NCBI GenBank assembly: GCA_963693365.1
Contig: CAVNZM010000013.1
Coordinates: 2,880,722-2,944,721, forward strand
Length of the DNA stretch: 64,000 nucleotides
Direction: 5' to 3'
DNA from: Amoebidium appalachense
Lineage: Eukaryota > Protista > Ichthyosporea
Shown here: positions 10,323-55,900 of the stretch, piece by piece
Position numbering within the stretch: the stretch's first letter is position 1
How the letters are laid out: every line of letters begins with the position of its first letter
Made by a program: the position numbers and the translations under genes
The notes under the pieces: model-generated
The model's input: the letters and a program-made list of their open reading frames with translations, nothing else
What the model was told of the DNA's origin: nothing
The model's database searches: none

Positions 10323-13300
10323 TCACGCAGCCAGCGTTTGCTGGTTGGGTTGAGGGGGTGCCTGTTCTCTCATTTGCGGTGTGGCGGCGGGGGTTGCAGC
10401 GGCAACTTTCAAATTGTTTTCGAGCTCGCGGGTCCACAATTCCCTATCTGCGGCCGACATCAAGCCTTCGTAAATTAACTCCTCTACGATCCCCCCTGGG
10501 GTATCGGAGGATGCATCATAGTCGCAAGTGACGCAGCGGCGGAGACCGTCGCTCAGAACCATGATGATCTGTGTGTGTGTGTGTGTGTGTGTGTGTGTGT
10601 GTGTGTGTGTGTGTGTGTGGGTGGGTGGGTGTGAGTTTGTGTGTGTGTGTGTGTGTGTGTGTGTGTGTGTGTGTGTGTGTGTGTGTGTGTGTGTGTGTGT
10701 ATGGGGGGCAGGGCGGGAGGAGGGGGGGATCGGAGGGAGGGTTAGAATGTGTTAAATGAGTAAGAAGTAGACACTCACGAAGAACAACACCATGTAGATA
10801 TTCTATAGCCCACACTAGTATGCATCAAGTAAAGCCCTTCCGAGAGGAAGGGGATGGGGGTGGGGGTGGGTGGGTGGGTGGGTGGGTGGGTGGGGGTTGT
10901 GGGTGCGTGTGGGGAATGTATGTATGTGTGTGTGTTTGTGTTGTGTGTGTGTGTGTGTGTGTGTGTGTGTGTGTGTGTGTGTGTGTGTGTGCATGCGCCC
11001 GCGTGGAGTGTGTGTGTGCGTGTGCTTTGGGGAACGGGAGGTGGGGAGGGAGGGGTGGGGGGTGGGCTGGACTGGGCTGGGCTGGGGGTGGGGGGCTAGA
11101 AATGCCAGTCTTCCCTAATCTTTGCAGGTCTCACACGCACACACACACACCAGTGAAACTCGCAACCCACATGTGGGAATCCCAGCCCTATACCTTGCAA
11201 GAGAACAATTAAAAAAAAACAAAAAAAAACGAGGGTTAAACTGGCTTACGTTCAGTTTTAGCGGAGGTTTTTTGTTGCCGACGGCTTTTCCCTGCGAGAA
11301 AAACACATATTTGGAACTCTGTTCCGCTGTTCGCCGTTTTTCCGGTTCAGGCAGTAGGCGGACGTTGGCTAGCGACCCCCATGCACCAGATTCAACCTCC
11401 TGTGTACGTGTACGTGGACGTGTACGTGTGTGTGTGTGTGTGTGTGTGTGTGTGTGTGTGTGTGTGTGTGTGTGTGTGTGTGTGTGTGTGTGTGTGTGTG
11501 TGTGTGTGTGTGTGTGTGTGTGTGTGTGTGTGTGTGAGGGAGTGAGTTTATGTGTGTGTGGGTGGGTGGGTGGTTGGGTGGGTGTGGGGAGGGGGGGAGG
11601 GGGCGGGGAAGAGGGAGGGAGGAATGTGTATATGTGGAGTCTGACAGGTCGGAGGAAAGAGAGGGGAGCACAGGCGATGGGAGGTGCAGGTAACAGTGAT
11701 GGAGGGGGGGGGGGGGGGGGGGGAGGTTTTGGTTAACCACAAATCGAAGAAAAAGGGATGCCAAAATCGTAGAGTGAACTTGCAAATGAAACAGTCAAAT
11801 AAAAATCAGTGTGAATGGTTGAGTAAGCGCGTGCCACACACACACACACACACATAAACACGCACGCACACACGCACGCACACACACACACGTACGTACA
11901 CACACACACACACGCGCACACGCACATGCACGCGCACACGAAAAACAATATGCAGGTGGGCACACACCAACACACACACACACACACACACACACACACA
12001 CACACACACACACACACACACACAGCCCCCCCCCCCCCCCAAAAAAAAAAAAAACATCGCCTCTCTCCCCCTCCCTCCCTCCGTCTCTCATTCGCTCACT
12101 TGTGGTTTTCATCAACGCTAACAAAGTCCCTTCCCCCCCCCCCCCCCCCCCCCAACCCCCCTCTCCCCCCCCCCCCCTTACACACACAGGCTCTCGCTCT
12201 CTCTCCCCCCCCCCCCCCCCCCCCTTCTCCCACCTCTCTCTGCCTGTGGTTTTGTGTGTGGGGGGGGGTGGGGCGGGGGGGATACCTGAAGAAAATTCAA
12301 ATCGTCTGCAGATAGGCGTTTGTCTTCTTGACACTTTGTGAGAAGATTGTTGCGGAGGATAAAGTGTGCTGCAAACACCTTGAGGGGGGGCACCTGTGTG
12401 TGTGTGTGTGTGTGTGTGTGTGTGTGTGTGTGTGTGTGTGTGTGTGTGTGTGTGTGTGTGTGTGTGTGTGTGTGTGTGTGTGTGTGTGTGTGTGTGTGTG
12501 TGTGTGTGTGTGTGTGTGTGTGTGTGTGTGTGTGTGTGTGTGTGTGTGTGTGTGATATATAATCGATTATTCCCTTTCCCCCTGTATCTTTGCTGGCTGT
12601 GCTCTCTGTACTGGGTGTGGCGGAGTGAGGGTAGGGTTGGGGGAGCTGTAAATTCAGAAGCTTGTATGGTGGCAGTGGTGGAGGTGATGGTACTCATGAA
12701 TATGCATGTTCGTGTGTGTGCGTGTCTCTGTCTGTGCGTGACTGCGGGCACGCATGTGTGCGTGTGCGGCGCGGGTGTTTAATGGATTGGGGGAGGGAGG
12801 GAGGGAGGGGGGGGGGTTTGAATGCGGAACACAGTACGAAGTACGCATACACGATGAGAAGCATGGTGCAGGGCACATGCAAAGGCAAACATTCAACTAT
12901 GCAGCATCAGCCATGCGCACAGTATGCGTCATAAGCAGAGCCCATCCTCAGGGAGGGCCCAAGTCATCAATTGCGTCTGAGTTTCGACCCCTTAGCCCGC
13001 GTATATACGACGCTCCAACTCAGACAGCAGCATCAACTGAACTTGGGTGGGTCAACCCGTCTTGATCAAAGACGAGCAGGGAGGGGGGGGGGGGGGAGTG
13101 TTTGTGTTCATAATGGTGCGTTTGTGCACGTGCGCGTGTGCGCGGATGTCTGTTAAGCTCGCATGTATAACGGGGAAGGGTGGGAGCGTGGGTAGGTGTG
13201 TGTGTGTGTGTGTGTGGGGGGGGGGGGGGGGGGGGGGGGGGGGGGGGGGGGAGTCCATTGCTTCATACCTCGAAAAGGAATCTGTGAGCAAGCAAGTCCT

Positions 13301-52932: not shown

Positions 52933-55900
52933 CTTATGGCAATAATGGCAACCGTTCCTTGCCTGAGTGTGGTATGGAGGTTGGGTCTTTCGACAGTGAT
53001 GGCTCTGACGATGACGATGAGGGGTCAAGTGACGAGAGCCCCGGTTCATTCAACGTGTCAACATGTGTGCGCCTAGCAGGCCGCAAGCTTAACGCCCGGC
53101 GTGCGATGCGCAAGCTGATTGGGTCTGTGCACAGCTCCGAAGGGTTTGCTTTAGCAGCACAGGACCCGGATCATCTGCTCTTCACTCTAGTGTTCTTTGA
53201 CGAGGCCGTGGCAGCAGACATACAGCTTGCCAGGTGCTTCCTGCCGAACCCCCCCCCCCCCCCCCCCCCCTTCCCCTCCAACGCCCCCCGCTCCTCCCTC
53301 TCGCCTCTCCCCCCCTTTCCCTGCAGGGCCTCCTCCCCTTTCCCCCATCCCCCTTTCCCCTCCCCCCCCCCCTCCCCCCCCCCCCCCGCCCCCTTTTCTG
53401 CATCCCCCTCCCCCTCTCCTCCTTCCCACAATTCTTCCTCCCAACTGCTCCACCTCCTTACTTCCTTGCACGTATCAATCCATCTCTCCTTCCAACCCAA
53501 GTGACACCAGTTTTTTGTCAGACAACCTGCCTCCCCAGGCCCACTTATTATGCCTGTCCTGTTCCCCTCCCCCCCCCCCTCTCCCCCCTCAGGAGGGCCT
53601 CTGCCCATTCGTCCCTCCTTTTCAAGTCCTCCATTACCTCTTACCTCCCCTAATTCTCATTATTCTCTAATAGTATACCTATATCTTCCATCCTACCTTT
53701 TTGGAAGCTCCCTGCTTCTCTTCCACCTATTTGAAAGCATCTGCATCTACCCCCCCCCCCCCCCCCCCGGGTTGACCCACCCAAGTTCAGTTGATGCTGC
53801 TGTCTGAGTTGGAGCGTCGTATATACGCGGGCTAAGGGGTCGAAACTCAGACGCAATTGATGACTTGGGCCCTCCCTGAGGATGGGCTCTGCTTATGACG
53901 CATACTGTGCGCATGGCTGATGCTGCATAGTTGAATGTTTGCCTTTGCATGTGTCCTGCACCATGCTTCTCATCGTGTATGCGTACTTCGTACTGTGTTC
54001 CGCATTCAAACCCCCCCTGTCTTCTTTCAGAGGTGTCCTTTCAGGACAGACCACTGTGTGGAGACATCTTTACTTCCATGCAACCGGGCATGGTTGCTCT
54101 GTGTCGTGCATCTGTAAGCACACGCGTTTGTCGCTGCACTGCATTAGTTTGCACACACATCTTCACCGTTTTGCTCACCTTGCTTGCATAAGCAACCCTG
54201 CTCGTCTTTGATCAAGACGGGTTGACCCACCCAAGTTCAGTTGATGCTGCTGTCTGAGTTGGAGCGTCGTATATACGCGGGCTAAGGGGTCGAAACTCAG
54301 ACGCAATTGATGACTTGGGCCCTCCCTGAGGATGGGCTCTGCTTATGACGCATACTGTGCGCATGGCTGATGCTGCATAGTTGAATGTTTGCCTTTGCAT
54401 GTGTCCTGCACCATGCTTCTCATCGTGTATGCGTACTTCGTACTGTGTTCCGCATTCAAACCCCCCCTGTCTTCTTTCAGAGGTGTCCTTTCAGGACAGA
54501 CCACTGTGTGGAGACATCTTTACTTCCATGCAACCGGGCATGGTTGCTCTGTGTCGTGCATCTGTAAGCACACGCGTTTGTCGCTGCACTGCATTAGTTT
54601 GCACACACATCTTCACCGTTTTGCTCACCTTGCTTGCATAAGCAACCCTGCTCGTCTTTGATCAAGACGGGTTGACCCACCCAAGTTCAGTTGATGCTGC
54701 TGTCTGAGTTGGAGCGTCGTATATACGCGGGCTAAGGGGTCGAAACTCAGACGCAATTGATGACTTGGGCCCTCCCTGAGGATGGGCTCTGCTTATGACG
54801 CATACTGTGCGCATGGCTGATGCTGCATAGTTGAATGTTTGCCTTTGCATGTGTCCTGCACCATGCTTCTCATCGTGTATGCGTACTTCGTACTGTGTTC
54901 CGCATTCAAACCCCCCCTGTCTTCTTTCAGAGGTGTCCTTTCAGGACAGACCACTGTGTGGAGACATCTTTACTTCCATGCAACCGGGCATGGTTGCTCT
55001 GTGTCGTGCATCTGTAAGCACACGCGTTTGTCGCTGCACTGCATTAGTTTGCACACACATCTTCACCGTTTTGCTCACCTTGCTTGCATAAGCAACCCTG
55101 CTCGTCTTTGATCAAGACGGGTTGACCCACCCAAGTTCAGTTGATGCTGCTGTCTGAGTTGGAGCGTCGTATATACGCGGGCTAAGGGGTCGAAACTCAG
55201 ACGCAATTGATGACTTGGGCCCTCCCTGAGGATGGGCTCTGCTTATGACGCATACTGTGCGCATGGCTGATGCTGCATAGTTGAATGTTTGCCTTTGCAT
55301 GTGTCCTGCACCATGCTTCTCATCGTGTATGCGTACTTCGTACTGTGTTCCGCATTCAAACCCCCCCCCCCCCCCGTTCATAGCCCCTCCTTCATCAGTA
55401 CTCCCTTACACCTGCCCGGCCCCCTTCAGAGTGCCTAACCCCCTCCCCCCCCCCACACACACACCCCTCCCCTTTCACACACCTGCACACACGAACGCAC
55501 ACATGCATGCACGCATGCACCCTCCCTCGCAGCCACGAGCGCACACACTCTTATTCACTTATAGAATTGTTAATAATCTAATGCCCCCCCCCCCCCCCCC
55601 CCAACCCCCCCCCCAACCCCAACCCACCCACACACGCACACACACACACACGCCAAGGTTTCCCTTGTTCTGCTCCTCGGCCTTTCCGCCTTCCCCATAA
55701 TCTGTCTTTCTCTCTCTTCCCCCCCCCCCCCCCCCCCCCCCCCCCCCCCCCCAACCCCACCCCACTGTCACCCACCCCACCACCACTGCCCTACGTCACC
55801 CTCCCACTTCTTGTCTTTGCTTATTCTTCCTTGTGATGTGCAACACAGGGACATATCCGGGCCACCTGAGGTCCAGCAACAACGCCTTCTTCAAATTCTG

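What the first reader, a model, noticed from the sequence alone, without database searches (positions are those of the whole stretch)
10323..53260. Degenerate 5' splice sites backed by an immediate poly(C) tract: a possible lineage-specific donor code
Seen: of 27 introns fixed mainly by protein homology and phase in four genes on both strands, 19 have a C run starting within ~20 nt of the GT. Examples: GTCCCC 33043, GTCCTTCCC 30879, GTTGAAACCC 29991, GTAGCCCC 28527, GTTTGCTCCC 37277, GTATAGCCC 36515, GTGGGACCC 15080, GTATTATCCC 16042, GTGATTCCC 51786. Many of these donors match U1 at little beyond GT. Most near-consensus donors (GTGAGT 21195, GTAAGC 11249, GTAAGT 39430, GTGAGC 56674) lack the adjacent C run; 46621 is an exception. 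Known: G-runs/hnRNP H and U-runs/TIA-1 rescue weak donors in animals, and PCBP/hnRNP K proteins bind poly(C). Inference: poly(C) acts as a positional donor enhancer here, so much of the apparent low-complexity junk may be a splicing signal.
Basis: partly seen in the sequence, partly recalled or inferred. Interest (0 to 1): 0.85.

Follow-up and report, generated by a model that had tools for sequence, protein, structure and literature searches.

The report
Poly(C) tracts behind weak splice donors
In four genes of a single-celled relative of animals, most introns open with a weak splice signal followed at once by a run of C's, which likely helps the splicing machinery pick these weak start sites.

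Summary
The window encodes proteins identical to Amoebidium (ichthyosporean) transcriptome proteins. These and spliced RNA contigs fix 27 of 28 introns, so the weak donors (GTCCCC, GTCCTT, GTTGAA, GTAGCC, T|GTGGGA) are really used. 19 of 28 donors have a sense C>=5 run starting within 25 nt, against 4.4 expected from intron interiors; 0 of 28 have a G run. C-backed donors pair more weakly with an assumed standard U1 (-4.7 vs -8.1 kcal/mol, p=0.008), but p rises to 0.09 without first introns and tract-overlapped sites. Acceptors are also odd: 28 of 28 CAG, 15 preceded by (CA)n, 3 U-rich; no intron is under 593 nt. Best reading: a poly(C) intronic enhancer, likely read by a PCBP/hnRNP K-type protein, used as the default donor cue. 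That mechanism is known in mammals for a minority of exons. No reader protein or functional effect was tested; the sample is four genes.

The parts
10323..21276 (-). Gene A, NRBP/WNK-like kinase-domain gene (NRBP label recalled), 11 exons, 10 introns
   Evidence: Model equals P0001; Pfam Pkinase; best PDB matches WNK1/WNK3
27621..41247 (-). Gene B, CCR4/PDE12/nocturnin-type EEP nuclease, 13 exons, 12 introns
   Evidence: Model equals P0002; Pfam Exo_endo_phos; three junctions also in an X2 contig
44300..49214 (+). Gene C, glycosyltransferase-like (TMEM246/PGAP4-like, lead only), 4 exons in the RNA contigs; transcript begins about 140 nt before 44300
   Evidence: Spliced contigs X1 record 1 and X2 record 7; Atlas hit at 0.88, a lead only
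51432..58254 (+). Gene D, OTU-like domain protein; introns 53234-55848 and 56674-57266 supported, 51786-52932 untested
   Evidence: P0153 and P0003; weak Pfam OTU match below cut-off
18450..18495 (-). Donor A2 aag|GTGTGT, C run from +17
16929..16974 (-). Donor A4 ctg|GTATGA, C4 at +14, C5 at +22
15997..16042 (-). Donor A5 cag|GTATTA, C run from +8
15035..15080 (-). Donor A6 tct|GTGGGA (3 of 9 Watson-Crick pairs to U1), C run from +7
13223..13268 (-). Donor A8 gag|GTATGA, C run from +18
12240..12285 (-). Donor A9 cag|GTATCC, C run from +5
37913..37958 (-). Donor B3 tgg|GTTTGT, short C5 runs from +8
   Evidence: (loose end)
37232..37277 (-). Donor B4 aag|GTTTGC, C run from +8
36470..36515 (-). 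Donor B5 atg|GTATAG, C run from +7
35603..35648 (-). Donor B6 gat|GTATTG, C run from +13
33872..33917 (-). Donor B7 aac|GTATGC, C run from +6
32998..33043 (-). Donor B8 aag|GTCCCC, C run from +3
32034..32079 (-). Donor B9 tag|GTATGC, C run from +12
30834..30879 (-). Donor B10 atg|GTCCTT, C run from +7
29946..29991 (-). Donor B11 ttg|GTTGAA (3 of 9 pairs), C run from +13
28482..28527 (-). Donor B12 gcg|GTAGCC, C run from +5; used although CAG|GTCTGT lies 48 nt upstream
46621..46666 (+). Donor C2 aaa|GTAAGC, C run from +11 (near-consensus donor with a tract)
51786..51831 (+). Donor D1 cag|GTGATT, C run from +7; not transcript-tested
53234..53279 (+). Donor D2 cag|GTGCTT, C run from +16
47834..47883 (+). 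50-nt frameshifting exon of gene C; its donor aag|GTGGAA has a C-rich tract from about +31
   Evidence: 50-nt gap in record coordinates and matching bin depth; only AG|50 nt|GT candidate in that bin
15151..15413 (-). Example (CA)n-CAG acceptor (intron A5); similar tracts at 10570-10700, 11426-11572, 12395-12554, 14095-14306, 16143-16244, 28605-29056, 30960-31201, 33119-33158, 38051-38169
46005..46089 (+). (CA)n-CAG acceptor of intron C1; similar at 48412-48634

Best explanation
In these Amoebidium genes a run of C's sits right behind most splice donors, on the RNA strand only, and likely acts as a splicing enhancer that a poly(C)-binding protein would read to hold U1 on the nearest upstream GT. 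Shown: the weak donors are used; the tract starts at +3 to +22, peaks at +21..30 and fades by about +75; it is strand-specific; exons are short (median 91 nt) and introns long (593 nt or more).
For: 19 of 28 donors vs 4.4 expected, and 0 of 28 with a G>=5 run vs an interior rate of 0.11. Significant in genes A (6 of 10, P=0.0004) and B (10 of 12) separately. Total simple-repeat cover at +11..40 is 58% vs 28% inside introns, so this is gain, not only sorting of repeat types. C-backed donors are weaker: 5.05 vs 6.33 Watson-Crick pairs (p=0.025), -4.7 vs -8.1 kcal/mol (p=0.008); still p=0.012 without the 4 overlapped donors. The used donor is the nearest GT upstream of the tract in 16 of 19; B12 and B8 are used over better U1 matches at -48 and +97. 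Precedent: poly-C runs of four or more at +11..15 of SMN2 intron 7 are a class of strong enhancers, with PCBP1/2 assumed as readers (PMC8789036, passages); PCBP depletion lowers inclusion of exons flanked by C-rich introns (PMC4797308, passages).
Against: Four genes from one window; genes C and D alone are not significant (1 of 3, 2 of 3). The strength link drops to p=0.09 (energy) and p=0.16 (pairs) without first introns and overlapped sites, and tract distance does not track strength among the 19 (rho -0.11, p=0.66). Not sufficient: 107 of 1459 interior GTs have a C5 run within 25 nt, and interior C>=8 tracts are not depleted of upstream GT (44 of 64). Equal or better nearby GTs exist for 10 of 19 C-backed donors but also 5 of 9 others. 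The six non-first donors without poly(C) are G-poor too (0.09 vs 0.27, P=0.005), which fits a broader rule. In human cells only 42 of 686 PCBP-enhanced exons with a C motif have it solely on the donor side (PMC4797308). U1 and KH proteins of this organism were not seen.
Confidence: 0.5

Rival explanations
1. Exclusion zone: selection only keeps G, and so decoy GTs, G-runs and (TG)n, out of the 40-50 nt behind donors (and AG out of the zone before acceptors). Poly(C) and (CA)n are what slippage fills these zones with; no protein reads them, and weak donors persist because no competing GT lies behind them.
For: All 24 non-first donors have 18% G or less at +7..46; the six without poly(C) average 0.09 vs 0.27 (P=0.005). 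The GT-free stretch behind donors has median 50 nt vs 4 inside introns; the AG-free stretch before acceptors has median 86.5 vs 6. Poly(C) is common everywhere (168 C or G runs of 10 or more in the window).
Against: Repeat cover behind donors is twice the interior level (58% vs 28%), and C-run cover reaches 57% vs 8.6%; A and T runs, also G-free, stay at 7% or less. Local folding shows no significant gain in donor accessibility over swapped controls (0.49 vs 0.43, p=0.11).
Confidence: 0.25
2. DNA- or transcription-level signal: the tract is poly(G) on the template strand and slows RNA polymerase II or sets a nucleosome edge just after each exon (G-quadruplex or R-loop), giving U1 time to bind weak donors.
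For: Strand-specific and fixed at +3..+50; exons of about nucleosome size or less (median 91 nt). The mechanism is recalled general knowledge, not tested here.
Against: 68 of 85 C>=8 tracts in introns lie away from donors and would pause polymerase as well; the SMN2 result points to a position-dependent RNA element.
Confidence: 0.12
3. By-product of mobile DNA or of assembly: a poly(C)-flanked repeat element, or old intron-creating insertions, left C tails at intron starts; or long-read homopolymer errors inflate the runs.
For: A 150-450 nt element with a shared 3' end lies in five introns, all in sense; the three near-identical insertions have poly(C) on both sides. A LINE-type RT locus is followed by a C-rich tract. 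A published Amoebidium genome is a nanopore assembly that is about half transposons (PMC11244446).
Against: No copy abuts a donor tract (nearest starts at about +187); donor sequences differ from each other; assembly error cannot choose strand and distance from a transcript-proven GT; C-rich flanks appear in loose ends of the RNA contigs from other loci.
Confidence: 0.08
4. Intron-bridging structure: the 5' poly(C) pairs with a G run near the acceptor, as (AC)m-(GT)n does in zebrafish introns.
For: 4 of 18 folded C-backed introns have a G>=5 run in the last 100 nt, and in three (B5, B12, D1) most of the tract pairs there.
Against: In 7 of 18 the tract is essentially unpaired (D2 left out for length); G>=10 runs are as common in other introns (10 of 19 vs 5 of 9); the 3' repeat is (CA)n, which cannot pair with poly(C).
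Confidence: 0.05

Closest known systems
PCBP1/2 (alphaCP) C-rich intronic splicing enhancers in human cells (PMC4797308; PMC8789036)
   Same: Sense-strand C-rich tract next to a splice site; poly-C at +11..15 of a donor enhances inclusion in SMN2.
   Different: In humans it serves a few hundred cassette exons, mostly on the acceptor side via U2AF65/U2. Here it lies on the donor side of 19 of 28 mostly constitutive introns as 20-50 nt near-pure runs.
G-run/hnRNP H and U-run/TIA-1 enhancers downstream of weak donors (G-run strength dependence recalled; U-rich/TIA1 class seen in PMC8789036 passages)
   Same: Homopolymer enhancer just inside the intron, linked to weaker U1 pairing.
   Different: Base is C; G is excluded (0 of 28 donors with a G5 run by +25); U tracts appear only behind a few strong donors (A10, B2, D3).
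Zebrafish (AC)m-(GT)n bridged introns (PMC4691745)
   Same: Simple repeats at intron ends serve as lineage-specific splicing cues, and acceptors lack a normal U-rich tract.
   Different: There AC is at the 5' end and pairs with GT at the 3' end. Here C is at the 5' end, CA at the 3' end, and they cannot pair.
Paired intronic motifs across human exons (PMC2945786)
   Same: Flanking intronic motifs within about 100 nt of short exons aid exon definition.
   Different: Here (CA)n upstream and poly(C) downstream do not co-occur across exons more than chance (9 of 18 vs 3 of 6, p=1.0).

Membership tests
Donor-side intronic splicing enhancer (G-run/TIA-1/PCBP type) | Motif enriched just downstream of used 5' splice sites, on the sense strand | tested here: met
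   19 of 28 vs 4.4 expected; G runs 0 of 28
Donor-side intronic splicing enhancer (G-run/TIA-1/PCBP type) | Favours weaker donors | tested here: inconclusive
   p=0.008 on all, p=0.09 after removing first introns and overlapped sites; U1 sequence assumed
Donor-side intronic splicing enhancer (G-run/TIA-1/PCBP type) | Removing the motif lowers donor use | not testable with these tools
   Needs a minigene or natural variants
PCBP/hnRNP K-dependent splicing | Triple-KH poly(C)-binding protein present and bound to the tract | not testable with these tools
Bridged introns (zebrafish AC-GT type) | Complementary repeats at the two intron ends that pair | tested here: not met
   G run near the acceptor in 4 of 18; tract unpaired in 7 of 18
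U12-type (minor) introns | RTATCCTT donor (motif recalled) or AT-AC ends | tested here: not met
   All 28 are GT-AG; none of the 28 printed donors reads GTATCCTT (closest A9 GTATCCCC)

The most novel reading that the evidence does not exclude
Amoebidium runs its spliceosome on a microsatellite code: poly(C) has replaced most U1 pairing beyond GT as the default donor cue, and (CA)n-CAG has replaced the U-rich polypyrimidine tract at acceptors, read by PCBP- and hnRNP L-type proteins, with a floor of about 600 nt on intron length. Factors that tune a minority of exons in animals would be core splicing factors in a unicellular relative.
Probability: 0.3. Interest if true: 0.8.

Novelty: new variant of a known kind. 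Interest (0 to 1): 0.52.

Why it matters
If it holds genome-wide, a culturable relative of animals uses a poly(C) donor cue and (CA)n acceptors as its ordinary splice code. That is a natural experiment on how far U1 pairing and the U2AF tract can decay when auxiliary elements take over, and it bears on when hnRNP-type exon definition arose. It also matters in practice: repeat masking and standard splice-site models would discard the most informative intron sequence in this lineage. Public genome and RNA data for Amoebidium appear to make the genome-wide test cheap.

Tried and rejected
No whole genome is held, so U1 snRNA, KH proteins and genome-wide counts could not be examined. Attempts to widen the sample failed: a repeat-element pattern had 0 matches in metagenome contigs, and P0002 found no related locus there. 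The homolog search for gene C exon 2 among longer proteins found nothing. The run search listed no holder on record as RNA; X1 and X2 behaved as RNA because their contigs skip introns, and all three runs are one sample and may underlie the EukProt proteins too, so these are not independent. The joints table stayed empty in both layings; junctions were read from piece offsets. My first guesses of gene B exons (37628 start, an exon near 36069, donor 35643) were wrong and were replaced. Donor accessibility: not significant. Avoidance of GT before interior C tracts: not seen. Co-occurrence of CA and C across exon or intron: p=1.0 and 0.11. No fixed branch-point position: nearest YTRAY lies 11-1414 nt from the acceptor. 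Rfam: 0 hits in the window and 0 in the repeat unit. Earlier-finding look-ups returned nothing. Ten paper searches listed no report of this pattern in ichthyosporeans; subscription papers are largely missing from the library, and cross-species splice-site surveys may describe it.
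Full report
Source. A search with one exon returned a single protein, P0001, 100% identical, which the collection labels as from an Amoebidium parasiticum transcriptome in EukProt. P0002, P0003 and P0153 carry the same label. The window is therefore from Amoebidium or a very close ichthyosporean. 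No genome is held, so all counts rest on this window.

Gene models. Four genes lie in the span. Gene A (kinase domain, WNK-like) has 10 introns and gene B (CCR4/PDE12-type nuclease) has 12. Both models translate exactly to P0001 and P0002, and each junction is the only canonical solution when the donor is moved -12..+60 and the acceptor -60..+12. An X2 contig independently joins three gene B exons, with a loose end matching a fourth. Gene C is covered by one spliced contig in each of X1 and X2, with donors 44673, 46621 and an extra 50-nt exon. Gene D introns 2 and 3 match P0153 (612 residues compared, 2 substitutions); intron 1 (51786) is untested. That gives 27 of 28 introns with transcript support, all possibly from one sample.

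The observation. All cited sites are as written. A C>=5 run starts within 20 nt in 18 of 28 donors and within 25 nt in 19 of 28; interior positions of the same introns predict 3.9 and 4.4, and no simulation of 200,000 reached the observed value. For C>=8 it is 16 of 28 vs 2.4. No donor has a G>=5 run within 25 nt (interior rate 0.11). C-run cover is 37% at +7..10, 57% at +21..30, 17% at +51..75 and 4-12% beyond; interior 8.6%, intergenic 0.3-7%. Genes A and B are each significant; C and D are too small.

Donor strength. With the textbook U1 5' end (recalled; the organism's own U1 was not seen), C-backed donors make 5.05 Watson-Crick pairs vs 6.33 (p=0.025) and -4.7 vs -8.1 kcal/mol (p=0.008); GTRAG occurs in 1 of 19 vs 4 of 9 (p=0.026). 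Dropping the four donors whose tract begins at +3..+6 leaves p=0.012 for energy. Also dropping first introns (14 vs 6) gives p=0.09 and p=0.16. Among the 19, distance does not track strength. Three of the nine donors without a tract are first introns. So the link is likely but not established.

What the tract is not. It is not sufficient: 107 of 1459 interior GTs have a C5 run within 25 nt, a likelihood ratio of about 9 by my arithmetic, and 44 of 64 interior C>=8 tracts have a GT just upstream. It is not most of the low-complexity DNA: 17 of 85 intronic C>=8 tracts are donor-proximal. It is not generally a bridging stem: of 18 introns folded (D2 left out for length), 7 leave the tract unpaired and 4 have a G run near the acceptor. 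It does not measurably open the donor in local folds (p=0.11). It does not come from the poly(C)-flanked repeat found in five introns, whose copies lie well inside them.

The wider anatomy. All 28 acceptors are CAG; 15 have four or more CA units in the last 40 nt (3.4 expected); only 3 are U-rich. The AG-free stretch before acceptors has median 86.5 nt vs 6 for 921 interior gaps. Introns run 593-2615 nt (median about 880) and the 24 internal exons have median 91 nt. All 24 non-first donors are G-poor at +7..46, including the six without poly(C). The typical unit is (CA)n-CAG, short exon, weak GT, poly(C); the two repeats do not co-occur across exons beyond chance.

Mechanism. I put 0.5 on an RNA enhancer read by a PCBP/hnRNP K-type protein that stabilises U1 on the nearest upstream GT (16 of 19 used donors are that GT). 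The main rival (0.25) is a G/GT-exclusion zone filled by slippage; it explains the G-poor rule but not why repeat cover doubles (58% vs 28%) and is almost all C. Template-strand G-run pausing (0.12), mobile-element or assembly origin (0.08) and C:G bridging (0.05) follow.

What is known. PMC8789036 (passages): poly-C runs of four or more at +11..15 of SMN2 intron 7 are strong enhancers, PCBP1/2 assumed. PMC4797308 (passages): 749 PCBP-enhanced cassette exons, 644 with the motif upstream and 42 with it only downstream. PMC4691745 (abstract, passages, section 10): zebrafish AC/GT bridged introns need no U2AF2; human G-triplet/C-triplet pairs run 5' G to 3' C, the reverse of this case. PMC2945786 (passages): motif pairs across exons. 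PMC6142364 and PMC5560861 (passages): ichthyosporean intron gain, long introns and heterogeneous splice sites in Sphaeroforma; nothing on C tracts in the passages seen. PMC11244446 (passages, first third of Results, two supplementary text files with no hits): Amoebidium genome, 7.2 exons per gene, nothing on intron composition seen; figures were not visible. Ten searches listed no description of this pattern, but the library lacks most subscription papers.

Verdict. Observation confirmed; interpretation partly supported. It works like a known donor-side enhancer, but the near-default use of long poly(C), with (CA)n acceptors, looks like a lineage-specific variant. Membership in the PCBP pathway is untested. 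Interest 0.52.

Noticed in passing
window 47834-47883 (+): Both RNA contigs of gene C include a 50-nt exon that shifts the frame and shortens the longest ORF from 453 to 291 aa, cutting off the C-terminal half. It may be a poison exon or a recent exonisation; contigs cannot give the inclusion rate.
   Followed up: partly
acceptors of all 28 introns: 28 of 28 end in CAG, 15 with (CA)n directly before, 3 U-rich; no consistent branch-point distance.
   Followed up: partly
all 28 introns: No intron is shorter than 593 nt; 11 lie between 593 and 800 nt, suggesting a high minimum length.
   Followed up: no
window 53768-55367, 47068-47466, 12810-13081, 38576-38831, 31460-31602: A 150-450 nt repeat with variable 5' ends and a shared 3' end running into poly(C), in five introns, always in host sense; the three near-identical insertions also follow poly(C). 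It has a roughly 90-nt hairpin, no Rfam match and very high contig depth in the RNA runs. It looks like a poly(C)-targeting SINE-like element.
   Followed up: partly
window 580-6969 (+): Copia-type LTR retrotransposon: 710-nt LTRs 99% identical, integrase and RVT_2 domains in two ORFs, and a poly(C) tract right after the last ORF.
   Followed up: partly
window 58900-61227 (-): Broken LINE-type RT locus (RVT_1) followed downstream by a C-rich tract.
   Followed up: partly
window 61525-64000 (+): Long ORFs that look by eye like a gag and RT of another retroelement; no Pfam hit at 0.001 for the two ORFs scanned.
   Followed up: no
window 40890-40970 (-): In-frame 81-nt candidate cassette exon in intron B1 with a pyrimidine-rich acceptor and a GTAGCG-poly(C) donor; absent from P0002.
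   Followed up: partly
window 30101-30508 (-): The acceptor of intron B10 lies in the last copy of a 115-nt tandem array that repeats a CTAAC/TTAAC...CAG motif; P0002 uses the last copy.
   Followed up: no
window 56200-57973 (+): P0003 jumps across this stretch at non-canonical ends, probably an assembly or template-switch artefact.
   Followed up: no
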